Origin: Patescibacteria group bacterium
GTDB taxonomy: Bacteria; Patescibacteriota; Patescibacteriia; UBA9570; JAHJKD01
Reading direction: 5' to 3'
Length of the DNA: 64,000 nucleotides
Assembly (NCBI GenBank): GCA_018822435.1
Contig: JAHJKD010000050.1
Location: 1,531-65,530 of the forward strand
The position numbers and the translations under genes were made by a program. This document shows positions 17,021-29,758 of this stretch, in pieces (within the stretch, counting starts at the first letter, position 1; each line of letters opens with the position of its first letter). The notes below the pieces were generated by a model. That model searched no databases, had not been told where the DNA came from, and saw nothing but the letters and a program-made list of their open reading frames with translations.

Positions 17021-17055
17021 AAAAACGGCCCGCCTATCAAGCGAATTTTTTTTAT
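17021..17055 (+). terminator. Degenerate copy of the recurrent terminator repeat
   Basis: aaaaacggcccgcctatcaagcgaatttttttt. ctatcaagc loop as in the six copies downstream. Confidence 0.4.
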
Positions 17056-17115
17056 TCTTGTAAAAAAAGGATTTTTGTAGTATAAAGGAACCACCTAAGT
17101 ATTTACTTCAAACAT

Positions 17116-17934
17116 ATGAAAAAAATATTCTTATTCCCTATTCTGGGCATTTTATTATTTACTATTAATTTCTTAGCGACTCCTTCAACCAAAGCATTTA
17201 GCACCGCCACTCATCCCATAGTTATAGATAATATATTAATGGGAGGATCGGGAAATGATGTTTGGATAGATGCTTCATATGGTAAGTATTGGGATTTAAA
17301 AGGAAAAAAATACAAGTTGTATAAAATGCGTTCTTATATTGGCAAAGGTACGGGCAGTGGAATATACCAAGGCCCTCCATCCATGACAGAAATTGTGAGA
17401 ATGAAAAATAATGGGACATATCTGAATAATTTTGTGGCCATCAGAAGCAATTGGAAATTTTTCCCTCAAAAGATAAGGAAGGGCAGTAAAAAATCTCCTA
17501 CTTATAAAAAAGTTATCAAAAAAATATTACGCAGGAATGATTTAGGCCATTTAAAGCCAAAGATCAAACAAATTTACAAAGTTGACCTGGATGGTAATGG
17601 CACCAAAGAAAAAATTATTCATGCTTCCAATATTGATTTTAATAATCCAAATTACTATCAGGAAAAAAATACTTATTCAGTCGTATTTGTAAGAAAGTTA
17701 GTAAATGGAAAAAAGAAAAATATTATTTTGAGGAAAAGCTTTTACACAGAAGACGGAGATTTTGAAGACGGCCCTACATATTCGCATCGCATCCGCGCTA
17801 TCGGCGATTTTAACGGGGATGGAAGAATGGAGGTCGTAGTTGAGACAAGATACTATGAAGGAACTGGATTTTCAATCTTTGAAGTAAAAAAGAAAAAAGC
17901 CGTGCCTGTACTCAGTAACGGCTCAGGAGCATAA
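17116..17934 (+). CDS. Secreted protein with FG-GAP/VCBS-like Ca-binding repeats
   Basis: 272 aa. Signal peptide. DLDGNGTKE and GDFNGDGRMEVVV motifs. Confidence 0.5.
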   Translation: MKKIFLFPILGILLFTINFLATPSTKAFSTATHPIVIDNILMGGSGNDVWIDASYGKYWDLKGKKYKLYKMRSYIGKGTGSGIYQGPPSMTEIVRMKNNGTYLNNFVAIRSNWKFFPQKIRKGSKKSPTYKKVIKKILRRNDLGHLKPKIKQIYKVDLDGNGTKEKIIHASNIDFNNPNYYQEKNTYSVVFVRKLVNGKKKNIILRKSFYTEDGDFEDGPTYSHRIRAIGDFNGDGRMEVVVETRYYEGTGFSIFEVKKKKAVPVLSNGSGA

Positions 17935-17942
17935 TATAAATA

Positions 17943-17972
17943 AAACGACCCGCCTTCCAAGCGGGTCTTTTC
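17943..17972 (+). terminator. Recurrent intrinsic-terminator repeat, copy 2
   Basis: aaaacgacccgccttccaagcgggtcttttctt. Confidence 0.7.
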
Positions 17973-18023
17973 TTATTTAAAAAAAATATGATATTATTAC
18001 ATTGAAAGGAATAAATTATATTT

Positions 18024-18761
18024 ATGGCAAATAATATGGAAGGGCGACGGCCAGCTCAAGAGCTGGAGTCAGCCAAAAATGTTACTAAAGAAGAGCTGGA
18101 AAAAATCGCCAAGAAAAAATTGAATTTTATGGTGAAAAAGGATGGATTAATTCTTGCTAGCTCGTTTGAAGATCTCAATTTGGGGGATGATGCCCAAGAC
18201 ACTGAAGGCAGTCCTTATGAATGGTTCCAAATCTTTGATGAAAAAGACCATCCCTACCGAATTGAAGGTAATGATGTCGTTCTTTATCGGAAGGAATGTC
18301 ATGGAAAAGGAAGAATTGAGAACGTTTATCATCGCGGCACCGATGTTTGGATAGTGAACCCAAAGAACGAACTCATGGTCCCTGTTAGAAGTGCAAAAAA
18401 AGACCTCTACTCCTCTATGGGAGACAACAGTGTAAGTGAACATAATAGCATAAGAGAGCCGTATTTAGGCACTGCCGTTAGGGGTTTCCAAGAAGAGCTT
18501 GGAATATCGGTCCCCCCTGAAGGACTATCCCTTGTGTGCAAATTTCCAGTGCATGATAAAAATCAATGGCAATGGTCTCAATATTACGTATTTCCCGATA
18601 AAGAAGGAAAATATAATCCGTCTGAAGAAGAAATAGGGGAAGTCCGCTGGATTCCCTTACAAAATTTATTTACAGAGGAAGGGATAAAAAAAATAAATTT
18701 TCGACTAGACCATTTACCCGCTCTAAAAGTATTTCTAGAAAAAATAAAAAATAAAAAATAA
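18024..18761 (+). CDS. NUDIX-like hydrolase (divergent Nudix box)
   Basis: 245 aa. GDNSVSE...RGFQEELGI resembles GX5EX7REUXEEXGU, with an insertion. Confidence 0.45.
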   Translation: MANNMEGRRPAQELESAKNVTKEELEKIAKKKLNFMVKKDGLILASSFEDLNLGDDAQDTEGSPYEWFQIFDEKDHPYRIEGNDVVLYRKECHGKGRIENVYHRGTDVWIVNPKNELMVPVRSAKKDLYSSMGDNSVSEHNSIREPYLGTAVRGFQEELGISVPPEGLSLVCKFPVHDKNQWQWSQYYVFPDKEGKYNPSEEEIGEVRWIPLQNLFTEEGIKKINFRLDHLPALKVFLEKIKNKK

Positions 18762-18770
18762 AAAAACGCC

Positions 18771-18802
18771 CGCCTATCAAGCGGGTCTTTTTTATCCCTT
18801 TA
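18771..18802 (+). terminator. Recurrent terminator repeat, copy 3
   Basis: aaaaacgcccgcctatcaagcgggtctttttt. Confidence 0.7.
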
Positions 18803-18832
18803 CATTCAGACTTTTTTTGATAAAATATCAAT

Positions 18833-19531
18833 ATGGGAGAAAAATACGAATACAATCAAAGTGGTGCAGAAGCCTACAAAGAATTAGGTATCGAGGGAAC
18901 TACATATGAAATGTCATTCTCTGAGATGAAAAGGATGCTTGGAAATATTCAAGGCATGAATTTTTTAGATTTCGGCTGCGGTTCAGGTCGTAGCGCACGA
19001 TTCCTAAAAACTCTCGGCGCTAAAAACGTCATTGGTGTTGATCATAATGAATCTATGATAAAACAGGCCAAGGCAACGGCAGTACAAGGGATTGATTTCA
19101 GGCTGATCAAAGAAAAAATTCCTCTAGACGATGATTCCGTTGACGGCGTAATTAGTTCAGCAGTTTTCTTAGAAATAAAAAATTTGGCTGATATGGAAAA
19201 AACGGCCAGGGAAATTGCCCGAGTTCTCAAGCCCGGTGGCGTATTCATACTAGTTACCGTAAATCCGGACGCCTTCGGGCATGATTTTGTAAGTTTTACC
19301 AGAACAGGAAACCCTGCAGAACTCGAAAGCGGCGATATGACTGAATGCCGGATGAAAGGAAAAAAACCATTTGTAATAGATGATATATTCTGGACCGAAG
19401 ACGATTATAGACAAGTGCTTGAATCAGCCGGTTTTACCATCGAAGATATTGTTTTCCCGAAAGCAGAATCAGGTAATTGGCTGGATGAAACAAATGTCGC
19501 ACCTGATATGGTCATAAAAGCAACAAAATAA
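18833..19531 (+). CDS. Class I SAM-dependent methyltransferase
   Basis: 232 aa. FLDFGCGSGRSARFL, VLKPGGVFIL. Confidence 0.75.
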   Translation: MGEKYEYNQSGAEAYKELGIEGTTYEMSFSEMKRMLGNIQGMNFLDFGCGSGRSARFLKTLGAKNVIGVDHNESMIKQAKATAVQGIDFRLIKEKIPLDDDSVDGVISSAVFLEIKNLADMEKTAREIARVLKPGGVFILVTVNPDAFGHDFVSFTRTGNPAELESGDMTECRMKGKKPFVIDDIFWTEDDYRQVLESAGFTIEDIVFPKAESGNWLDETNVAPDMVIKATK

Positions 19532-19563
19532 AACGACCCGCCTATCAAGCGGGTCTTTTTTAA
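19531..19563 (+). terminator. Recurrent terminator repeat, copy 4
   Basis: aaacgacccgcctatcaagcgggtctttttt. Confidence 0.7.
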
Positions 19564-19614
19564 TTTTTTAACCACTTCTTCTGAACACCAAAATTTGATA
19601 TACAAAAGAAGGGG

Positions 19615-19646
19615 CGGGGGCATGGTTCTTGCGAACGCAGCCCCCG
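19615..19646 (-). terminator. Hairpin terminator of the small membrane-protein gene
   Basis: 7-bp stem cgggggc/gcccccg with a 17-nt loop, followed on the minus strand by ttctttt. Confidence 0.45.
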
Positions 19647-19677
19647 TTTGATCCCGTAAACTACCGAAGCATCCACG

Positions 19678-19923
19678 TCACTCTTCATCCTCGTCCTTCG
19701 TATCCTCCTCTTCTTTTTCCTCATTTTTTTCCTGAACAAGACGTGCGATGCTTTCAGGAATCTGACTGACTAGTAAACCTAAGAAGAAAAGAGACAGTGC
19801 TATAGCCATACAAAGCACGACAATCGCAACCTCTGCGTTCCCATTGAAAACACATATGCAAGCCAAACCAGAAGAGAGGAAAAAAGTAGCCATCCATAAA
19901 GGGAATACGATACTTTTTGTCAT
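19678..19923 (-). CDS. Small two-TM membrane protein with acidic C-terminal tail
   Basis: 81 aa. SD taggaggt 6 nt upstream. Two hydrophobic helices, tail EEKEEEDTKDEDEE. Confidence 0.5.
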   Translation of the reverse strand: MTKSIVFPLWMATFFLSSGLACICVFNGNAEVAIVVLCMAIALSLFFLGLLVSQIPESIARLVQEKNEEKEEEDTKDEDEE

Positions 19924-20082
19924 GGTAACCTCCTAATAGGTGGATGAAGTTGTTAACGGTCGCCTGTTCCGGATTCGCCGGCAACTTATTTTGCCGACTA
20001 AATCACTAGATACAGGATAGGCGACCTTACCATTTCAGCGATCCCTTGTCAATAGTCGCTCTTGAATAATTATTATCAATAA

Positions 20083-20115
20083 AAACACCCGCCTATCAAG
20101 CGGGTCTTTTCTTTA
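20083..20115 (+). terminator. Recurrent terminator repeat, copy 5
   Basis: aaaaacacccgcctatcaagcgggtcttttcttt. Confidence 0.65.
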
Positions 20116-20168
20116 ATAAAAATAATATTTCTGATATATTTAATCATATCTAGATAAATAAACATTTT

Positions 20169-20639
20169 ATGCCACAAAATAATTCAAGACCAGCTAAAAA
20201 ACCTTTTACGGAAAACGAACAAGTTCTTCTAAGGAATAAAGCAATTGATAAAATCAAAGACCTTTTTCTGCCTAATGATAAAATTCTGAAAATAATTCTT
20301 ATTGGATCTTCTGTGAAGGGATCTTTTGGGGAATATGGACCGCCCGGTTTCAGAAACAGCCTATTTTCTGATTTTGATTTCATTTTCTTTGTAAAAGACG
20401 ATTATGAAATTCCTGATTGGTTAAAAAAAGAACCGTCGGGAAAACCTTTCACTGACGACAGTCTTAATCTTGCCTATCGCAACGCAAAAATGGTCGACGA
20501 TAAATATGATATCGAATTTTTCTTTATCAGGGAAGAGAATCTGGATGATAATAATTTTATCGAAGAAGGAGAAGGGGCAGGCATTCCTTTGAAAAAGAAT
20601 TCAAAAATTGAACATCTGACTATTTTTGAAAAAAAATAA
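20169..20639 (+). CDS. Minimal nucleotidyltransferase (Pol-beta superfamily) domain protein
   Basis: 156 aa. GSSVKGSFGEY...SDFDF matches the GS-x(n)-DxD NTase motif. Confidence 0.6.
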   Translation: MPQNNSRPAKKPFTENEQVLLRNKAIDKIKDLFLPNDKILKIILIGSSVKGSFGEYGPPGFRNSLFSDFDFIFFVKDDYEIPDWLKKEPSGKPFTDDSLNLAYRNAKMVDDKYDIEFFFIREENLDDNNFIEEGEGAGIPLKKNSKIEHLTIFEKK

Positions 20640-20640
20640 A

Positions 20641-20670
20641 AACGATCCGCCTATCAAGCGGGTCTTTTTT
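20641..20670 (+). terminator. Recurrent terminator repeat, copy 6
   Basis: aacgatccgcctatcaagcgggtctttttt. Confidence 0.7.
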
Positions 20671-20696
20671 ATTTAAAGTAATTTTAGAAAAATAGT

Positions 20697-20722
20697 GGGA
20701 CTGAATGTAAGGATTCAGTCCC
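20697..20722 (-). terminator. Hairpin 3' of the GC-rich Cys-rich gene
   Basis: Perfect 10-bp stem gggactgaat/attcagtccc with a 6-nt loop. T-rich on the minus strand after the stem. Confidence 0.45.
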
Positions 20723-20757
20723 GGGGGAAACAACCGCGCCTTACCGCGGGTGCGACG

Positions 20758-21156
20758 CTAGGCCACTTCGTCGAAGTAGTCCCAGCGCGCCTCATCGATC
20801 TCCTCCACGACCGCCTCGCACATCATGTAGATCATGACGTCGCGCAGCGTGATGTGAGCGGAATGGTCGACGTTGCACTCGAAACCGCAGTAGCACTCAC
20901 AGCAAGATTCCTCGCGGACACCGACGATGCCTCTAGCGGTCTGATCCAGATCCAGCCCATCCAGCATCATGTCCTCGGTGTAGCGGAACAGGACGGCGTC
21001 GGTCATATCCGACGCGCGACCGTAAGCCGCCCGCCAGGTCGAGTCCGTCTCCTTCCACCAGTGATCCGGGCCGAAATGGTCCATGATCCGGCGAGCGAGC
21101 CGCTCGATCAGGTAGGAGGAATCATGCCGGTTACCCTTTTGTTGTACGTTCATCAC
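20758..21156 (-). CDS. Cys-rich hypothetical protein (CCECYCGFEC), GC-rich island gene
   Basis: 132-aa ORF. Nearly every codon ends in G/C (checked by hand). SD aaaggag upstream. Divergent from the MerR-GHKL gene. Confidence 0.5.
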   Translation of the reverse strand: MMNVQQKGNRHDSSYLIERLARRIMDHFGPDHWWKETDSTWRAAYGRASDMTDAVLFRYTEDMMLDGLDLDQTARGIVGVREESCCECYCGFECNVDHSAHITLRDVMIYMMCEAVVEEIDEARWDYFDEVA

Positions 21157-21279
21157 GTATCTCCTTTCAGGAGTTTTACCGCACCTGCTCCATGCAGGAC
21201 GGCGATGGCAATGCCATCATTGAGGGTCAATCTGTATATCACATTTTTTCAATTTTGTCAATAGTAATCCATAAAAATA

Positions 21280-21309
21280 TTGACAAATTCTATAATATTT
21301 GCTAATATT
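21280..21309 (+). promoter_or_regulatory. Sigma70-like promoter TTGACA-(17/18)-TAATAT for the MerR-GHKL operon
   Basis: ttgaca aattctataatatttgc taatat. Confidence 0.45.
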
Positions 21310-21337
21310 TACATAGGTTTACATAGGTTTACATAGA
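21308..21337 (+). promoter_or_regulatory. Three tandem 10-bp direct repeats (tttacatagg x3), candidate operator
   Basis: tttacatagg tttacatagg tttacataga, between the -10 and the ATG at 21343. Confidence 0.5.
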
Positions 21338-21342
21338 TTATT

Positions 21343-22083
21343 ATGAAAGAAAAATTACATTCAATCGGAGAAACAGCTAACATTATTGGAGTTTCTATTG
21401 ATACTCTACGAAAATGGGATAAAAAAGGCATTTTGCCTTCTTTTCGACCTTCACCTACCAGTAAAAGATACTATCGCCAAGAAGATATTGATGCTTTTTT
21501 AGCAAAAGAAACCCAACTAGATCTGAAATCCATGGCTGAAAAATGGGCCATTGATCCATCTCCTTCTCCCCTGTCCCCGGAATTATATTGCCAGACAAGC
21601 GATGTTTTTCATGCTCGCCTGCAACATCTAGAGGTAGAAATAGCCCGCGTACCTAAATTAAAAGATATTTTTCCCTTAATCGTCGCTGTTATTGGTGAAA
21701 TCGGCAATAATTCTTTCAACCATAACATTGGCAATTGGCCGGATGAGCCAGGCATATTTTTTGGATACGACCTAAAAAACCGCCAAGCTGTTCTGGCTGA
21801 CCGAGGCCAAGGCATCTTAAAAACTCTGAAGCGTGTAGTGCCGGATTTGAAAAACGACCAAACTGCCCTAAAAGTTGCTTTCACCGAATATATTTCCGGC
21901 CGCGCCCCCGAAGACAGGGGCAATGGCCTGAAATTCGTCCGGGACGTAGTGACGGAAAATCCGATACAGCTAAAATTCTTTACCGGTGAGGCGCAACTGG
22001 AGTTAGAACAAAATACAGCTGATTTAGATATTAAAAAAAGCGATCTTTCCTTCCATGGCTGCATCGCCATAATAAATTTCTAA
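21343..22083 (+). CDS. MerR-family HTH fused to GHKL (RsbW-like HATPase_c) serine-kinase/ATPase domain
   Basis: 246 aa. N-terminus IGETANIIGVSIDTLRKWDKKGIL...YYRQEDID (MerR HTH). C-terminus N-box EIGNNSFNH, G1 DRGQGI, G2 GNGLKFV. Confidence 0.65.
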   Translation: MKEKLHSIGETANIIGVSIDTLRKWDKKGILPSFRPSPTSKRYYRQEDIDAFLAKETQLDLKSMAEKWAIDPSPSPLSPELYCQTSDVFHARLQHLEVEIARVPKLKDIFPLIVAVIGEIGNNSFNHNIGNWPDEPGIFFGYDLKNRQAVLADRGQGILKTLKRVVPDLKNDQTALKVAFTEYISGRAPEDRGNGLKFVRDVVTENPIQLKFFTGEAQLELEQNTADLDIKKSDLSFHGCIAIINF

Positions 22084-22100
22084 CATCCTAATCCTATACT

Positions 22101-22385
22101 ATGAATATTTATCTAAAAAAATTTGGTACTACTCTCGTTTCCCGGCCGGCCGGCAAAGAGGCTTGGCTCGCGCTCCAACCCAATCTTAAGGAATTAGAAG
22201 AAAACGAAAAAATAATTATTGATTTCAAAGGCGTGGCCGTGCTTACCCCTTCCTGGGCGGATGAAGTCGTCTCACCTTTAAAAGACAATTTTCAAAATCA
22301 GATCAGTCTGATAAATACGGAAAATCCGTCTGTCCAAGCCACATTAACTACACTAAAAAAAGCAAAGCAAGACCAAAAATCTTAG
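22101..22385 (+). CDS. STAS-like (DUF4325) anti-sigma-antagonist-type partner protein
   Basis: 94 aa. IIDFKGVAVLTPSWADEVV matches the DUF4325/STAS core. 17 nt downstream of the kinase gene. Confidence 0.55.
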   Translation: MNIYLKKFGTTLVSRPAGKEAWLALQPNLKELEENEKIIIDFKGVAVLTPSWADEVVSPLKDNFQNQISLINTENPSVQATLTTLKKAKQDQKS

Positions 22386-22465
22386 TAAAAATTAAAATTT
22401 TATTAATATTTGAATCCATCTATTGATACAATGTATACAAACTTTCTTAGATGTACATGAAAAAT

Positions 22466-22494
22466 AATTCCGCCGTTCAAGCGGGTCTTTTTTG
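22466..22494 (+). terminator. Recurrent terminator repeat, copy 7
   Basis: aattccgccgttcaagcgggtcttttttg. Confidence 0.6.
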
Positions 22495-24718: not shown

Positions 24719-27700
24719 CTAAACTTTTTTCTTAAAAGTCAGTCCTCTTTTCCTGGTGTAGAAGAACATGAATATCGCGAAAGCCACTATCAGGCTCAGA
24801 TTGACTATGAACAGCCACATCGTTTTGGACAGGCCCTGGCCTTCTTCCGGTATGACGAATTTACCCAGCACGATCTCATCTGTTTCCACTCCGTACAATT
24901 CCGACTGGGCGTAAACGGTATGTTCGCCCTCGGGCAGCAATTCCATGGGCACGCGGATTTCCCAGCGGCCGTATTCATCCGCCTTAGTCACCCTAACCAC
25001 TTCTTCAGACCTTATTTTCACAGTCACGGTCGCATGAGGCAAAGTCAAGCCTTTAAGCACCAACTCCGGACCAGATACATTGATCAATGTCTGAATATTT
25101 CCCTCTTCATCAATATATTCTTCAATGCCCGGCACATCCCCGTAAGTCGCCTCAAAGAAATCCATGCCTTCCACATTGGTGTCATTCACCATTAAAAGTT
25201 TCAAGAAATTTTCCATGGTTTCTTTCAGTTCCTGCCGCTCTTCTTCGGTCTGGGGCGGCCTGATGTCGCGCGGAATTTTTATTTCCTCTTCATTTACAAT
25301 TACAATGATAAATTCTTCCTCTTCTTCCTCCTCAAATGCGAGCACGATAGTTTGCCCGGCTGATGAATGTCTGCTCACCGACGTATAAGCGGTCGCCGTA
25401 GCTGCGAAAGAGGAAGGCCCGAATACTTCCGCGTAATAAACGCCGGAACCAAGTCCGTAAAAAGTCAGTTCGCCATTTTCATTGGTTACTCCGGACGATA
25501 CTTTGTAGCCGTCTTTATAGATATAGACATAAGATCCGGGCAATGGATCCCCGATCGGATCTTGTACATAATAAGATAAAGTAGAAGTCTCGATCGGATT
25601 GCTGGTCATGTTAGAATTGGTCGCGGCCGATGCCTCATTAGATGAAAACGCTGCTTCACTGCCTACCACGGCTGAATTGAAATTCGGATTAATAACCCGA
25701 ACAACAAAGTAGACCGATTTTGTCTCTCCCGGCGCGATCGCTGTATCGCTGAAATCAAGCGTTGTACCGTTTACATTAAGATCTCCGCCATATGAGGAAA
25801 GATAGGTTCCTGATGGGATATAATCGCGAATATTTATAGATGTCGCATCGCCATCGCCCGTATTTCTATATGTCAGGGAATATTTCAGATAATTTCCCGG
25901 TTCAACTGGCACGCCGTTGTCGTCAGCTGCCTTAATGACCGGACTAAATATTGCAAACACGACCAAGGCGGCCGTAATTACGCCGGCGCCGACAGCGGCC
26001 CAGTGATTTGTTTTGGCATTGCCCCGGAACTGATCGTAAGACATTTGCCAAGTGCCCTTTTTATTGGCCGGGGCGATTTTCGAGAACGACCGGGCCGGAC
26101 TCCTGAATATGACCAGGTGCGGTTTTTTTAAGCCACCGGATAAAAAGAGGGTCACCAGAAATAGCGTCAGGAATATAAATAAAAATGACCAAAGAGGTAT
26201 CTGATAAGCCGAGTAATCAAGCTCGCGGAATTCTACATTTTCATTCCCTGTCGCGGCCATGGCCATTTTAATGAACTTATTAAGCCAGGTCAGCGGAGCC
26301 GTGCCTACTGTAACAATTTTTGTAAGGGATATTTCCGGATCAAGCGAAGTATTTACATAAAACTTCTTCGCACCAGACCATTCTCCTTTCAATCCTTCCG
26401 GATCAATCGCCCGCACAGTCCAGTAATAATCTGTTTCATCATTCAATTGATTAATCACGTTCACTTCCGGGCTGCCCGTGGCTGACGTATAGGAATATTC
26501 GTAATTATTGGCCGGATCAGAATTTTTCCCTATCCTTACCCGGTAATAAAGCTGGGACTTGCTGTGGTCCGGGTCGCTGGGCGCGTCCCATTTCAGGGTC
26601 GGCGTCTGGCTGGAAGTGGTGGAGTTATTTGGTGGTGAAAAACCTGAAGTTATCTTATTAGGCGGATCATTGACATTGTTGACGGTCAGGGTCACCTGAT
26701 TGGAATTCCTCGTATCTCCCTCGGTATCTATCGCCTTGAAAGTGACCGTAGCCGTGCCGTACCAGTTCGATTTCGGGGTAAAGGTCACTTTATTCTCGCT
26801 GCCGATGCTGACAGTAATATTGGCCGGGCTGTCCGAACCCAGCACTTCATAATGCATGGCCAGGCTCCTCAGGTCCTGGAAATAGTCATCCAGGTCAAAG
26901 GCCTTTGTCAAGGTCGTATCTTCATTCCATTGCTGGTTCGGGATCGTCCCGGTCTGTATTATATTTGAAGTAGAAGTCGTAAACACGGTGCAATTCGAAT
27001 AATTAGAGTAATTGCCATAAGAATTTTTATAGCGCACGTGCCACCAATAGGTCGCGCCCTTGGCCAGACTGCCGTACGGGACCGTGTAAGAGGTATTAGC
27101 GGCCGCGTCCCCCGTATTTAGAACGGCTCCGGAATCGGCCGCGCACTGGGAAGACGAATTATAAACTTTCCACTGTGAAGCGGCATGCGTCTCAGCCGCG
27201 TCCGCAAAAGCAGAAGCCGATAAAGCCACGTCTGTTTTTTGGTCAACTGATCCATTAGCCGGAGATGTATTGGCTGGCTGGTCCGGCACAGTGGAAACGA
27301 TCGCATCAGCGATCTGATACCGCCATACTCCGTCTGTATCATAATAAGAAGGCAGACCGCCTGGATTCGTATCATCGTCCTTGCCATTAAAAGTAAAAGT
27401 CGGATTCAAAGAATCATTTGCATAGTCGCCATAAACCTTGATAGTAAAAGGACCGTATTCAGTTTTTGAACCGTTTACGTCATATTCATAATCAGTAATA
27501 TAAAACCAGGTCGGTTCGTCATCGTATTCAAAGCTGGCCGGCCCCCACGCGCCCTGATCAGTATCACCAGCCGGATAGGGCGGATTCGTAAAAGTGCCAT
27601 TACTTAAAGTGGAGCCGCTGTAAGTGGCGCCTGACTGGGGAATCACAGAAACCGTATTGCTGCCGGATTTTATCGGATTCAGGTCCTTATATAAGATCTC

Positions 27701-29758
27701 AACTGCTCCCCACCAGGTCGAGCGAATGTCAAAATTATTATTATTATTACCGATATTATTATCGGTTAAAAGCGTTGTCTCATTAGCCGCTCTGGTATCA
27801 ACAAATAAAATACCGCCGTCCGTATTGCTGTTAATCGTATTTTCCACGCCGCTACCGCCAATATCAGGCTTTGAAACCAAATCATAAGAATGTCCGATCG
27901 GCGTCTGCTTATCATAATAAGGATCATAATGATTCGGTAAATCATCTTGATTCAGGGCATGGTCAAGAGTTCCGGCCGCATAAATACCATAATCTGCATT
28001 ACCGGTCAGAGTATTGCTTTCCAAAGTCATGGTTGATCCTTCAAGAAAAACACCTGAACCGCCATTACCTGATATTGTATTGTCTCTTACGATTGGTTCT
28101 TCACCCGGAGTCTGATCAAGATTATAGTCTTGGGCAAAAATTCCATGAGAAGAATTATTGGAAATATCATTATTTTGAATTATATATCCCGCGCCAGGAA
28201 ATCCAGATGAAGAATAAACCATGCGCATAACAACACCATAGGTATTATTTTTTATAGAATTTGTCCGATTGCCTGCCGCCCCAAAATAATCATTGCCTCC
28301 CGCTTCTCCCGCTATTATATTTATGCCCATATAATTTGGAATACTGGAATCATCTTTTCCAATACCAAAATAATTTCCATAAATCATGGAATCATCTCCC
28401 ACAATATGAGAAAATAACATACCGCTGCCATCATCAGCCGGATGTGAATCAGATATTCCTGTATTCCCAATAAAATAATTTCTTTGGTCGGCTAATAATC
28501 CCGCATTTGAGCACATGTTCACGGCCCAGCCTAAATCATCTGTATCATCGCAATAGCCGATGATATTACTATAATGATTATAAATAAATCTTACGCCCTG
28601 TTCTGTTTGTCCAGGTGCTGGAGTATAAATATCACTTGTTCCAGTCGGATCTCCTCCAATAATATTTCCTGATACACGATTATGATGAAAGCCCGGATTT
28701 GTGTCCTGATCAAATCCAAAAAAGGTACCATAATCATAACCCGCCCCAACATTGCCTTCTGAACTATCATCAACTCCGTCTCCATCTGTACCAATCGTAT
28801 TATATTTAGCATCAGTATATAAATATACTCCAAAAGCCAATTCTCCATAATGGACAATAGCAGAGCCATCAGGCCGAATATTAAAATAATTACCTGACAC
28901 TTTATTTTCCTGGCTGCTCCATCCTATAAAAAGTGAATCAGTATTTTGGTCATCGCCAGCTGCAAAAATATTCCGGGCTTGTGCCGCCGTACAAGAAAAA
29001 GCCGGATCATCATCAAAGCCGGTAATATTCTCATCCGAATTATAATAACGCAATGATGCGCCATTATTGCTATTCCAAGTCGTCCCGTTATCATCCAATG
29101 CAAACCAGTTGCCGGCCACATGATTTCTGTCCGCCACTAGCATGTAGATGCCGTTTCCTGAAGAAATTGCTCCCACAATATTATTGCCCACAATAACATT
29201 TCTTTGATGACTGTCAGGCGTACCAAAACAATCCAGTCCGATCTGGCTGTCTTCTGCCCTAAAAAATATTCCATTATCATCAAAGCCTTCCACTTTCAGT
29301 CCGCTAATGCGCGAATTATCAGCCGCATCATTAAAATACAATCCATTAAGGCAAGTTCCCGTTTTTGTTATACGAATTCCAGGTCTATCATTAATTGTAT
29401 CCCATTCATTTTCCGCTGTTAGAATTAAATCTTCATTTACGTTTGGCAACTGGCCCTGTCCGTCGCCGTCCACGGTAATGGTCACCTGGCTGCCAGCCAC
29501 AGCTACACCGGCAAAATCAACAGTATCTAATCCTGGATTTCCATTGGCCGCTGTTATGGCCTCGCGCAAAGAACAGTCGCCAGGATTGCAAGCACCCGGC
29601 GCCGGATCATCGTTCCTGGTGACGGAATAAGTGGCTGCGTATCCGGAAAAAGGCACACAAAGAAAAAGCCCTCCGATTAGGAGGGCCATAAAAAATCCAA
29701 AATATTTAGCATTTTGGCAGTTTTCACCGATGGATGCTATCTTTTTCCACAGTTTCAT
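24719..29758 (-). CDS. Giant cell-surface protein: right-handed beta-helix (pectate-lyase-like) repeats, Ig/FN3-like modules, C-terminal TM anchor
   Basis: 1679 aa. Signal peptide. NNxISGN beta-helix repeats. C-terminal hydrophobic segment then basic tail. poly-Glu stretch. Confidence 0.7.
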   Translation of the reverse strand: MKLWKKIASIGENCQNAKYFGFFMALLIGGLFLCVPFSGYAATYSVTRNDDPAPGACNPGDCSLREAITAANGNPGLDTVDFAGVAVAGSQVTITVDGDGQGQLPNVNEDLILTAENEWDTINDRPGIRITKTGTCLNGLYFNDAADNSRISGLKVEGFDDNGIFFRAEDSQIGLDCFGTPDSHQRNVIVGNNIVGAISSGNGIYMLVADRNHVAGNWFALDDNGTTWNSNNGASLRYYNSDENITGFDDDPAFSCTAAQARNIFAAGDDQNTDSLFIGWSSQENKVSGNYFNIRPDGSAIVHYGELAFGVYLYTDAKYNTIGTDGDGVDDSSEGNVGAGYDYGTFFGFDQDTNPGFHHNRVSGNIIGGDPTGTSDIYTPAPGQTEQGVRFIYNHYSNIIGYCDDTDDLGWAVNMCSNAGLLADQRNYFIGNTGISDSHPADDGSGMLFSHIVGDDSMIYGNYFGIGKDDSSIPNYMGINIIAGEAGGNDYFGAAGNRTNSIKNNTYGVVMRMVYSSSGFPGAGYIIQNNDISNNSSHGIFAQDYNLDQTPGEEPIVRDNTISGNGGSGVFLEGSTMTLESNTLTGNADYGIYAAGTLDHALNQDDLPNHYDPYYDKQTPIGHSYDLVSKPDIGGSGVENTINSNTDGGILFVDTRAANETTLLTDNNIGNNNNNFDIRSTWWGAVEILYKDLNPIKSGSNTVSVIPQSGATYSGSTLSNGTFTNPPYPAGDTDQGAWGPASFEYDDEPTWFYITDYEYDVNGSKTEYGPFTIKVYGDYANDSLNPTFTFNGKDDDTNPGGLPSYYDTDGVWRYQIADAIVSTVPDQPANTSPANGSVDQKTDVALSASAFADAAETHAASQWKVYNSSSQCAADSGAVLNTGDAAANTSYTVPYGSLAKGATYWWHVRYKNSYGNYSNYSNCTVFTTSTSNIIQTGTIPNQQWNEDTTLTKAFDLDDYFQDLRSLAMHYEVLGSDSPANITVSIGSENKVTFTPKSNWYGTATVTFKAIDTEGDTRNSNQVTLTVNNVNDPPNKITSGFSPPNNSTTSSQTPTLKWDAPSDPDHSKSQLYYRVRIGKNSDPANNYEYSYTSATGSPEVNVINQLNDETDYYWTVRAIDPEGLKGEWSGAKKFYVNTSLDPEISLTKIVTVGTAPLTWLNKFIKMAMAATGNENVEFRELDYSAYQIPLWSFLFIFLTLFLVTLFLSGGLKKPHLVIFRSPARSFSKIAPANKKGTWQMSYDQFRGNAKTNHWAAVGAGVITAALVVFAIFSPVIKAADDNGVPVEPGNYLKYSLTYRNTGDGDATSINIRDYIPSGTYLSSYGGDLNVNGTTLDFSDTAIAPGETKSVYFVVRVINPNFNSAVVGSEAAFSSNEASAATNSNMTSNPIETSTLSYYVQDPIGDPLPGSYVYIYKDGYKVSSGVTNENGELTFYGLGSGVYYAEVFGPSSFAATATAYTSVSRHSSAGQTIVLAFEEEEEEEFIIVIVNEEEIKIPRDIRPPQTEEERQELKETMENFLKLLMVNDTNVEGMDFFEATYGDVPGIEEYIDEEGNIQTLINVSGPELVLKGLTLPHATVTVKIRSEEVVRVTKADEYGRWEIRVPMELLPEGEHTVYAQSELYGVETDEIVLGKFVIPEEGQGLSKTMWLFIVNLSLIVAFAIFMFFYTRKRGLTFKKKV

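What the first reader, a model, noticed from the sequence alone, without database searches (positions are those of the whole stretch)
20697..22494. MerR-HTH::GHKL kinase plus STAS(DUF4325) partner pair with triple direct-repeat operator, divergent from a GC-rich Cys-rich gene
ORF 21343-22083 fuses a MerR-type HTH to an RsbW/SpoIIAB-like GHKL ATPase: N-box EIGNNSFNH, G1 DRGQGI, G2 GNGLKF. The next gene, 22101-22385, is a STAS-like DUF4325 protein. Together they form a partner-switching module, kinase/anti-sigma plus antagonist. Here the kinase itself carries a DNA-binding domain and no sigma factor is encoded nearby. Three exact 10-bp tandem repeats (tttacatagg x3, 21308-21337) lie between the -10 and the ATG. 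MerR regulators normally bind a palindrome inside a 19-20-bp promoter spacer. This geometry points instead to a different operator logic, for example autoregulation by the HTH-kinase. The divergently transcribed neighbour (20758-21156) is a GC-rich, Cys-cluster protein (CCECYCGFEC) of foreign composition. The whole locus sits in a cassette-like accessory stretch. Together this looks like an uncharacterised signalling or defence-type module.
Basis: partly seen in the sequence, partly recalled or inferred. Interest (0 to 1): 0.7.

Follow-up and report, generated by a model that had tools for sequence, protein, structure and literature searches.

The report
DNA-binding kinase with STAS partner
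This is an uncharacterised two-gene regulatory module found in hundreds of ultra-small (CPR/Patescibacteria) bacterial genomes: a DNA-binding domain is fused to an anti-sigma-type kinase domain, a small STAS-like partner gene follows it, and the protein very probably shuts off its own promoter by binding phased direct repeats.

Summary

The fusion is real, not a frameshift: full-length relatives occur in at least 567 species genomes, almost all CPR. The DUF4325 gene follows directly in 77 of 77 loci that have room. No third gene is conserved nearby.

The repeats (9-nt core x3, period 10) are a conserved operator. T[GA][CT]ATAGRTTT is about 69-fold enriched upstream of the gene. It is spaced 10, 20-21 or 30 bp, and it flanks or overlaps the -35, the spacer and the transcription start. 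In 740 kb, phased clusters occur nowhere else. Recognition-helix residue 20 tracks the operator variant (D with C, Q/M with T, N with GGG).

The best reading is an autorepressed, sigma-independent partner-switch-like module with BldC-like direct-repeat binding.

The GC-rich neighbour is unrelated, and the defence or accessory reading is not supported. This is a new variant of a known kind; interest 0.62.

The parts
21280..21308 (+). Sigma-70-type promoter of the operon: -35 TTGACA (21280-21285), 17-nt spacer, extended -10 TGcTAATAT (hexamer 21303-21308).
   Evidence: Consensus scan gives 10 of 12 matches with TG. The same TTGAC[AT]-17-TGcTAA[TG]AT arrangement is conserved in the closest relatives L001-L012.
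21308..21337 (+). Operator: three phased direct repeats TTTACATAG(G/G/A) at period 10. In one search's register the motif starts at +7, +17 and +27 relative to the first base of the -10 hexamer. The array covers the expected transcription start and the leader.
   Evidence: TRF score 58, 100% matches. The motif T[GA][CT]ATAGRTTT occurs at 13.5 per kb upstream against 0.195 per kb in background, with spacings of 10, 20-21 and 30. Phased clusters were found only upstream of this gene in 739,537 bases. Positions relative to the -10 are fixed. The motif co-varies with HTH residue 20.
21343..22083 (+). Gene for the 246-aa fusion protein. It has an N-terminal BldC/MerR-type winged HTH (residues about 5-54, with recognition helix 19-28 and specificity residue D20 at 21400-21402). 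A short disordered linker follows (residues 55-57). The rest is a SpoIIAB/RsbW-like GHKL domain (residues about 80-246): N box 21697-21726, G1 box 21799-21816, G2 box 21919-21936, and an ATP-lid of low pLDDT at residues 188-193.
22101..22385 (+). Gene for the 94-aa DUF4325 (STAS-like) partner. The invariant motif is DF-G-V-x-x-[LF]-[TS]-P-S51-W-[AG]-D-E-F (S51 codon at 22251-22253).
22469..22493 (+). Intrinsic terminator hairpin that closes the two-gene operon. It is one of seven near-identical copies in this stretch.
   Evidence: Terminator scan and repeat search.

Best explanation
This is a self-contained, negatively autoregulated two-gene signalling module built like a SpoIIAB/SpoIIAA or RsbW/RsbV partner switch. 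Its output is direct DNA binding rather than sequestration of a sigma factor.

Proposed mechanism, step by step:

1. The N-terminal HTH is a minimal MerR-like winged helix of the BldC/Xis type and has no MerR coiled coil. Several copies bind in one orientation to phased direct repeats T[GA][CT]ATAGRTTT, with residue 20 of the recognition helix reading position 3 of the motif. This step is well supported by comparison but not shown biochemically.

2. The repeats sit on one face of the helix. They overlap or flank the -35, the spacer and the transcription start, so binding occludes RNA polymerase and represses the operon. This step is inferred from geometry.

3. The C-terminal GHKL domain binds ATP and binds the co-translated DUF4325 STAS-like protein. 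This step is inferred from fold, strict synteny and invariant surfaces.

4. The GHKL domain probably phosphorylates the partner on the invariant Ser51 at the N-terminus of helix 2. This step is inferred by analogy.

5. Whether the partner is bound or released then sets the oligomeric state or the availability of the HTH, and hence operator occupancy. As for RsbW and SpoIIAB, that would depend on its phosphorylation state and on the ATP/ADP ratio. This step is hypothesis.

The GHKL domain may also dimerise and so tether two HTHs. That would explain the mix of 10-bp and 20-21-bp spacings.
For: Domains and folds.

Sequence bridge to the RsbW-type family: the alignment of the family gives hhalign probability 95.5% (E=1.5e-8) to a Cytobacillus 'ATP-binding protein', with the N, G1 and G2 boxes aligned. 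That protein hits Pfam HATPase_c_2 at E=9.3e-6.

Obligate pairing: DUF4325 lies directly downstream in 77 of 77 loci, with gaps mostly of 8-15 nt. It also follows the HTH-less forms and the form with a different wHTH. No other neighbour is conserved.

Operator:
- About 69-fold enrichment with helical phasing.
- All copies lie on the coding strand, and clusters occur only upstream of this gene: 58 of 81 sources, none elsewhere in 740 kb.
- Motif positions are fixed at -32, -22/-23, -12/-13, +7, +17 and +27 relative to the start of the -10 hexamer. They overlap the -35 in 31 of 62 loci and lie within 30 nt downstream of the -10 in 43 of 62.

Direct readout: HTH position 20 has the highest mutual information with the operator variant of all 246 positions (1.21 bits). 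D goes with T[GA]C[AC]TAG (45 loci, 2 of them with no motif scored). Q (25 loci, 24 of them with TGTATAG) and M (4 loci) go with TGTATAG. N goes with TGGGTAG (2 loci). S goes with TGAGTAG in one of two S loci.

Controls: four HTH-less relatives lack the repeats, and an ArsR-like-wHTH relative has a palindrome instead.

Precedent: BldC, the best HTH structural match, binds direct repeats head-to-tail as cooperative multimers (PMC5859096).
Against: - There is no biochemical evidence.
- Kinase activity and Ser51 phosphorylation are inferred only.
- No PP2C phosphatase gene lies in the window or is conserved in the neighbourhoods, so reversibility is unexplained.
- If the only target is the module's own promoter, the physiological output is unknown. 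I could not scan whole genomes for further operators, and the metagenome scan was swamped by chance hits.
- A model of the complex could not be computed.
- The D/Q split may reflect few independent evolutionary events.
Confidence: 0.55

Rival explanations
1. The protein is an anti-sigma factor with a tether. The GHKL domain sequesters a sigma factor encoded elsewhere, as SpoIIAB and RsbW do, and DUF4325 is the anti-anti-sigma. The HTH serves only to autoregulate the operon or to place the complex at promoters.
For: The best structural matches are anti-sigma kinases. The invariant F89-x-x-R92 in the first GHKL helix recalls SpoIIAB Arg20, which contacts both partners; this comparison is from memory and was not tested. 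Only an autoregulatory site was found in 740 kb, which leaves room for a protein-level output.
Against: No sigma factor gene lies in the window or is conserved next to the pair in 80 genomes. In classical systems the sigma gene is usually in the same operon. Three different N-terminal solutions exist in the family (MerR HTH, ArsR-like wHTH, none), which suggests DNA binding is an add-on to a core GHKL-STAS function but does not identify that function.
Confidence: 0.2
2. The system involves no phosphorylation. The GHKL domain is an ATP-dependent dimerisation or clamp module, as in MutL, GyrB and MORC, or a pseudokinase. DUF4325 acts as a stoichiometric co-repressor or anti-repressor, and Ser51 is a structural helix cap.
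Confidence: 0.18
3. The pair is a selfish or conflict module of toxin-antitoxin, abortive-infection or defence type, autoregulated as type II TA operons are.
For: It is a compact, autoregulated two-gene operon found in variable genomic contexts. The HTH gives a PADLOC hit to the small HTH protein mad1 of MADS (E=9.3e-11). In this window it sits in a stretch of small accessory-looking genes.
Against: Identity is 50-74% across CPR classes, and all but two of the 80 loci come from different genomes (L017 and L018 share one MAG). There is 1 hit in 2.9 million viral contigs and no DUF4325 hit in 72,556 plasmids. No other MADS genes are nearby. PADLOC has no model for the GHKL or the DUF4325 part. 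The window is chromosomal, with housekeeping genes.
Confidence: 0.05
4. The HTH is an excisionase or recombination directionality factor, and the direct repeats are its binding sites in an attachment-site arm.
Against: No integrase is adjacent in the window or in 80 loci. The repeats hold fixed positions relative to -35 and -10 promoter elements. The gene is chromosomal and conserved.
Confidence: 0.02

Closest known systems
SpoIIAB-SpoIIAA and RsbW-RsbV partner-switching pairs (anti-sigma Ser kinase plus STAS anti-anti-sigma)
   Different: The kinase carries its own DNA-binding domain. There is no sigma factor and no PP2C phosphatase in the operon or neighbourhood. The sequence is too diverged for the HATPase_c_2 or STAS HMMs: the partner is DUF4325, a shorter STAS of 94 aa with 3 helices. 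Gene order is kinase then STAS. Phosphorylation is untested.
BldC (Streptomyces), founder of the BldC family of MerR-like regulators (PMC5859096)
   Different: BldC is a 68-residue single-domain protein with a large regulon. Here the HTH is fused to a GHKL domain. The NCBIfam BldC model scores 15.4 bits against a cut-off of 77. The repeat motif differs (T[GA][CT]ATAGRTTT against AATTxxxxC). Spacings of 20-21 bp are common, which adjacent head-to-tail contacts alone would not explain. Only an autoregulatory site was found.
Classical MerR-family regulators (MerR, CueR, SoxR, BmrR)
   Same: The N-terminal HTH matches Pfam MerR and MerR_1 above their cut-offs.
   Different: There is no long dimerisation helix after the HTH in the model and no effector-binding domain. 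The promoter spacer is the optimal 17 nt, not 19-20. The operator is a set of direct repeats outside or flanking the spacer, not a palindrome within it. The geometry suggests repression by occlusion rather than activation by DNA distortion.
Non-sigma partner-switching systems (for example SiaB-SiaC in Pseudomonas, SypE-SypA in Vibrio; reviewed in PMC8256260)
   Different: Their outputs are enzymes or biofilm regulators reached through protein-protein contacts. None that I know of fuses the kinase to a DNA-binding domain; this rests on my own knowledge plus literature searches that found nothing.

Membership tests
Classical MerR family | N-terminal MerR-type winged HTH | tested here: met
   Pfam MerR_1 36.2 bits (cut-off 21.6) and MerR 35.1 bits (cut-off 28.2), residues 7-52.
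Classical MerR family | Long antiparallel coiled-coil dimerisation helix directly after the HTH, followed by an effector-binding region | tested here: not met
   In the AF2 model (pLDDT 88.8) helix 46-54 is followed by a disordered linker at 55-57, a short helix at 61-70, and then the GHKL domain. There is no long helix.
Classical MerR family | Palindromic operator inside an overlong (19-20 bp) -35/-10 spacer | tested here: not met
   The spacer is 17 nt. The operator consists of direct repeats starting just after the -10. The same holds in relatives.
BldC family | Minimal MerR-like wHTH that lacks a coiled coil and resembles BldC/Xis structurally | tested here: met
BldC family | Membership by the curated sequence model (NCBIfam NF033787 HTH_BldC) | tested here: not met
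   15.4 bits against a cut-off of 77.
BldC family | Head-to-tail cooperative binding to direct repeats | not testable with these tools
   Operator anatomy is compatible: same-strand repeats at 10-bp phase. Binding itself needs EMSA, footprinting or a structure.
SpoIIAB/RsbW-type anti-sigma Ser kinases (Pfam HATPase_c_2) | Bergerat (GHKL) ATP-binding fold closest to SpoIIAB/RsbW | tested here: met
SpoIIAB/RsbW-type anti-sigma Ser kinases (Pfam HATPase_c_2) | N box (E-x3-N-x3-H), G1 box (D-x-G-x-G), G2 box (G-x-G-L/F) | tested here: met
   E119/N123/H127, D153/G155/G157 and G193/G195/L196 are invariant or nearly invariant in 47 homologues. They align to the same boxes of a HATPase_c_2-like protein.
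SpoIIAB/RsbW-type anti-sigma Ser kinases (Pfam HATPase_c_2) | Match to the family HMM | tested here: not met
   No HATPase hit at E<=0.1 in Pfam or NCBIfam. There is only a transitive link through the Cytobacillus protein: hhalign 95.5%, and HATPase_c_2 at 26.1 bits against a cut-off of 27.4.
SpoIIAB/RsbW-type anti-sigma Ser kinases (Pfam HATPase_c_2) | Cognate sigma factor (usually co-operonic) and PP2C phosphatase | tested here: not met
   Neither was found among the ORFs scanned in the 64-kb window, and no third gene is conserved in 80 loci. Genes elsewhere in the genome could not be examined.
SpoIIAB/RsbW-type anti-sigma Ser kinases (Pfam HATPase_c_2) | Ser/Thr kinase activity on the STAS partner | not testable with these tools
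   Only circumstantial: an invariant Ser51 at the N-terminus of helix 2.
STAS / DUF4325 (PF14213) | Match to the DUF4325 HMM above the gathering score | tested here: met
   37.6 bits against a cut-off of 23, E=1.8e-9. Homologues carry PF14213 precomputed.
STAS / DUF4325 (PF14213) | STAS fold (beta-beta-alpha-beta-alpha-beta-alpha) | tested here: met
Type II toxin-antitoxin / defence islands (incl. MADS via mad1 hit) | Patchy, mobile, multi-copy distribution, association with phages, plasmids or other defence genes, and presence of the other system genes | tested here: not met
   1 hit in 2.9 million viral contigs. No DUF4325 hit in plasmids. No conserved neighbours. The PADLOC hit is limited to the 58-residue HTH.
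Excisionase / RDF | Adjacent integrase or recombinase and att-site context | tested here: not met
   No recombinase gene flanks the cassette stretch or the pair in the window, and none is conserved in 80 loci.

The most novel reading that the evidence does not exclude
The pair is a CPR-wide, sigma-independent partner switch. An RsbW-like kinase that senses the ATP/ADP ratio (or another cue) directly gates its own BldC-like, direct-repeat DNA-binding domain through a minimal STAS protein. That would make it one of the few conserved global stress or energy regulators of these reduced genomes. It would come with a simple, evolvable one-residue/one-base recognition code (D20-C, Q/M20-T, N20-GG) and with further operators elsewhere in the genome that I could not scan.
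Probability: 0.3. Interest if true: 0.8.

Novelty: new variant of a known kind. Interest (0 to 1): 0.62.

Why it matters
CPR/Patescibacteria make up a large part of bacterial diversity. They have tiny genomes and few recognisable regulators, and most of their conserved proteins have no known function.

This pair is among the better conserved of them, at 50-74% identity across classes. Databases label it only 'MerR family transcriptional regulator' and 'STAS-like/DUF4325 protein'. The only three papers that mention DUF4325 do so once each, on unrelated topics.

If the model holds, it shows a new wiring of the classic partner switch: kinase and STAS acting on a fused DNA-binding domain, with no sigma factor. 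It also extends BldC-type direct-repeat recognition beyond small stand-alone proteins. And it offers an unusually clean, directly testable protein-DNA recognition code.

It gives DUF4325 its first concrete functional hypothesis. It also provides a defined promoter-operator-repressor set that could be useful for genetics in Saccharibacteria and other cultivable CPR.

Tried and rejected
1. HMM and sequence searches for the GHKL domain found only the HTH: Pfam, NCBIfam, and PDB by phmmer and by profile.

The only local matches fell on the G1 box and on the loop before helix 2.

4. A metagenome scan with the two-repeat 20-mer, meant to look for other operator sites, returned 120 loci. Only 10 lay upstream of the gene, with 5 more carrying the gene elsewhere or beyond my distance filter. 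The rest were mostly TATATAG-type low-complexity or chance matches, so the scan says nothing about a regulon.

5. The afdb50 fold library was unavailable. The viral fold library gave only separate HTH or GHKL matches and no fused architecture.

6. I considered that the GC-rich island might be a structured RNA rather than a gene, and rejected it. Rfam finds nothing there. Substitutions against its homologue fall mainly at third codon positions (52, against 33 and 27), with 21 synonymous-only codons and GC3 of 0.80.

7. I considered an integron-like origin for the cassette-like stretch and rejected it. The genes upstream are TyrS/TrpS-type and MurD-type, and there is no integrase.

8. The DUF4325 profile does not match the wHTH protein next to the Cytobacillus relative.
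Full report
**What is in the window**

On the + strand, between two copies of a hairpin terminator (20646-20670 and 22469-22493), there are five features:
- a good sigma-70 promoter: TTGACA at 21280, a 17-nt spacer, then TGcTAATAT ending at 21308;
- three phased repeats, TTTACATAGG / TTTACATAGG / TTTACATAGA, at 21308-21337;
- a 246-aa ORF at 21343-22083;
- a 17-nt gap;
- a 94-aa ORF at 22101-22385.

The third repeat differs in its last base, so the exact unit is 9 nt at period 10. TRF scores the array 58 with 100% matches.

A 132-aa ORF (20758-21156, - strand) is transcribed divergently. It lies in a 60% GC island within DNA of about 35% GC.

**Domains**

The 246-aa protein matches Pfam MerR_1, MerR and HTH_17 over residues 7-52. 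Nothing in Pfam, NCBIfam or PDB sequence space matches the remaining 190 residues.

Structure rescues the call:
- An AlphaFold model built on 47 homologues has pLDDT 88.8.
- The quoted motifs fit the GHKL boxes exactly and are invariant across the family: E119-x3-N123-x3-H127, D153-x-G155-x-G157, and G193-x-G195-L.
- A sequence bridge exists. The family profile aligns with 95.5% probability (E=1.5e-8), box for box, to a Cytobacillus plasmid 'ATP-binding protein'. That protein hits HATPase_c_2, the RsbW/SpoIIAB-type Pfam family, at E=9.3e-6.

**The fusion and the pairing are real and old**

- The protein search returned 4389 hits, and the 120 listed are all full-length relatives of about 245 aa (53-100% identity), named by their sources as Patescibacteria, Peregrinibacteria, Gracilibacteria and similar.
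They span Peregrinibacteria, Gracilibacteria, Saccharibacteria, Microgenomates and Parcubacteria lineages.
- In the 80 loci fetched, the DUF4325 gene follows the fusion gene directly in 77. Gaps are mostly 8-15 nt. The three exceptions are contigs that end at the fusion gene.
- Clustering all ORFs within 5 kb on either side found no third conserved gene. The best non-shadow family occurs in 6 of 80 loci.
- The 64-kb window is ordinary chromosome: SHMT, a TyrS/TrpS-type synthetase, MurD, UvrA/C/D, RecA, GroEL, FtsK, EF-P, GuaA. None of the ORFs scanned there is a sigma factor or a PP2C phosphatase.
- The pair is nearly absent from viral contigs (1 locus in 2.9 million) and from plasmids.

Together these points argue against a defence or accessory module. 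They favour a vertically inherited regulator.

**The core of the family is GHKL plus DUF4325**

An exhaustive phmmer search with the C-terminal domain alone found only 303 representative proteins among 1.84 billion. The domain is therefore a narrow, distinct branch.

Besides the forms of about 245 aa, the hits include forms of about 190 aa with no HTH, and one form with a different, ArsR-like winged helix. In all five such relatives looked up, including contigs of 52-66% GC that do not look like CPR, the next reading frame is DUF4325 or begins like it. All four read far enough keep the PS[WF]xDE motif.

**The repeats are a conserved operator read by the HTH**

Upstream of almost every homologue there are two to four same-strand copies of T[GA][CT]ATAGRTTT. 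Four lines of evidence support direct readout:

1. Enrichment and phasing. The core occurs at 13.5 per kb in the 130 nt upstream, against 0.195 per kb per strand in the rest of the loci. Copy-to-copy spacings pile up at 10, 20-21 and 30 bp.
2. Exclusivity. With a relaxed pattern, phased clusters occur in 58 of 81 sources. Each lies once, directly upstream of the gene and on its strand. None lies anywhere else in 739,537 bases, including the rest of this window.
3. Fixed promoter geometry. Relative to the first base of the best -10 hexamer, motif starts cluster at -32, -22/-23, -12/-13, +7 (the commonest, 22 loci), +11, +17, +21, +27 and +32. The array runs along one face of the helix. It overlaps the -35 in 31 of 62 loci and lies within 30 nt downstream of the -10 in 43 of 62. 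In the window the three copies start at +7, +17 and +27.
4. Co-variation. Of all 246 positions, residue 20 at the start of the recognition helix has the highest mutual information with the operator variant (1.21 bits; next best 0.96). The pairings are:
   - Asp with T[GA]C[AC]TAG (45 loci, including the window; 2 of them had no motif scored);
   - Gln with TGTATAG (25 loci, 24 of them with TGTATAG);
   - Met with TGTATAG (4 loci);
   - Asn with TGGGTAG (2 loci);
   - Ser with TGAGTAG (1 of 2 Ser loci);
   - Glu plus Asn22 with TTAGTAG/TTACTAG (2 loci).

As a small control, the four HTH-less relatives lack the motif, and the ArsR-like form has a palindrome (TTGACTTTGTAGTCAA) in its promoter instead. 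The D/Q split may be a single deep event, so the number of independent switches is modest. Even so, the location of the co-varying residue is what direct readout predicts.

**Why direct repeats**

BldC is the one MerR-like regulator known to bind variable numbers of direct repeats head-to-tail as cooperative multimers (PMC5859096).

The frequent 20-21-bp spacings suggest an additional element. A GHKL-mediated dimer with the flexible linker at residues 55-57 could tether two HTHs in the same orientation. This is inference.

**How it most likely works**

Shown by sequence, structure prediction and comparison:
- the architecture;
- the obligate pairing;
- the operator and its promoter geometry;
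- the co-variation with residue 20.

Inferred:
- autorepression by occlusion;
- binding of DUF4325 to the GHKL domain;
- phosphorylation of Ser51.

Ser51 is invariant in 76 of 76 sequences. It sits in the motif DF-G-V-x-x-[LF]-[TS]-P-S-W-[AG]-D-E-F and forms the first residue of helix 2, the place where SpoIIAA-type proteins are phosphorylated (the comparison is established knowledge).

Hypothesised: the partner's bound or released state, set by phosphorylation and the ATP/ADP ratio as in RsbW and SpoIIAB, controls operator occupancy.

Open problems:
- No phosphatase has been found.
- No target is known beyond the module's own promoter.
- No complex model could be computed.
- The Ser51 to Ser58 equivalence is not established at residue level.

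**Rivals**

1. The GHKL domain still sequesters a sigma factor encoded elsewhere, and the HTH only autoregulates (0.2).
2. There is no phosphotransfer, and DUF4325 is a stoichiometric co-regulator of an ATP-dependent clamp (0.18).
3. It is a toxin-antitoxin or defence module (0.05). Conservation and distribution contradict this.
4. It is an excisionase with att-arm repeats (0.02). The absence of a recombinase and the fixed promoter geometry contradict this.

**The GC-rich neighbour**

It is a genuine protein-coding gene. Substitutions against its homologue in L201 fall mainly at third codon positions, with 21 synonymous-only codons, GC3 of 0.80 and a Shine-Dalgarno sequence. It belongs to a family of only four sequences in 5.8 billion. 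None of the 80 related loci has it. It is an insertion next to the module and is not part of it.

**Comparison with known systems, and novelty**

The module works like a SpoIIAB/RsbW-type partner switch joined to a BldC-type DNA binder. It is not a member of the classical MerR family: the coiled coil, the effector domain and the palindrome in a long spacer were all tested and not met. It does not pass the BldC or HATPase_c_2 sequence models.

Literature searches found no characterisation. The only three papers that mention DUF4325 do so once each, on unrelated topics, and nothing turned up for STAS-like plus GHKL or for MerR regulators in Patescibacteria.

I rate it a new variant of a known kind, of good interest (0.62). 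It is widespread in a poorly understood part of the bacterial tree, mechanistically suggestive, and directly testable.

Noticed in passing
window 17030-22492 (+): 17030, 17950, 18770, 19538, 20089, 20647, 22470: There are seven near-identical copies, four of them exact, of a 23-nt terminator hairpin CCGCCTATCAAGCGGGTCTTTTT. All are on the + strand. Each closes a small gene or gene set: FG-GAP-like, NUDIX, methyltransferase, small membrane ORF, nucleotidyltransferase-like, and the module. Shuffles give 0 expected matches. The layout looks cassette-like, but there is no integrase, and the genes upstream are housekeeping (TyrS/TrpS-type, MurD).
   Followed up: partly
window 20758-21156 (-), leader 21157-21240 (-); L201 200-676: The GC-rich Cys-rich gene (CCECYCGFEC...VDHSA motif, GC3 0.80) has only 3 homologues in 5.8 billion proteins. 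In L201 its homologue is again a GC island in a low-GC contig. Both copies share a promoter and a leader of about 75 nt with two hairpins: GATGG...CCATC, and CCTGC...GCAGG against CCGC...GCGG, with one compensatory pair. Rfam has no match. It could be a small mobile gene with a regulatory leader.
   Followed up: partly
window 21589-21591 and 22060-22062 (Cys83 and Cys240 of the fusion protein): Two cysteines are at least 90% conserved across the family, in YC-x-T-x-D and in HGC near the C-terminus. Whether they lie close together in the fold, which would allow a redox switch, could not be checked because model coordinates are not exposed.
   Followed up: no
L205 3300-4548; L203 4800-5556; L202, L204, L207: Relatives of the GHKL domain exist without any HTH (about 190 aa) and with an ArsR-like wHTH (276 aa, with the promoter palindrome TTGACTTTGTAGTCAA). 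In all five loci the next reading frame is DUF4325 or begins like it. L203 (66% GC, next to Toprim-like and RHH-like genes) has a different direct repeat, GTAGCCCTCCTGGAAT x2, upstream.
   Followed up: partly
L209 2542-4056 (Cytobacillus plasmid NZ_CP097350.1): A distant relative of the GHKL domain (HATPase_c_2-like, 290 aa) is followed by a 192-aa protein with a C-terminal MarR/penicillinase-repressor-type wHTH. The N-terminal 130 residues of that protein match nothing, and the DUF4325 profile does not match it. This may be the same logic with the HTH placed on the partner.
   Followed up: partly
L002 6115-9916 and 3-4 other loci: In a few Peregrinibacteria-type genomes the pair lies directly upstream of what look like hrcA-grpE-dnaK. 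The identification is by eye from the N-terminal sequences. Only 4-5 of 80 loci show this, so it may be coincidence.
   Followed up: no
window 21343-22083: The exact 246-aa protein is on record only from Logan assemblies, whereas both neighbours (P0121, P0241) are also in NCBI protein sets from the same 68-kb contig. The deposited annotation may call this gene differently or as a pseudogene.
   Followed up: no
L017 and L018 (both from MAG CAZWLI01): One genome carries two copies of the pair. Both have Asp20 and TGCATAG operators, so the family is not strictly single-copy.
   Followed up: no
window 24719-29758 (-): A 1679-aa ORF is rich in repeats and ends in a predicted membrane anchor, suggesting a surface protein. 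It lies just downstream of the accessory stretch and was not analysed.
   Followed up: no
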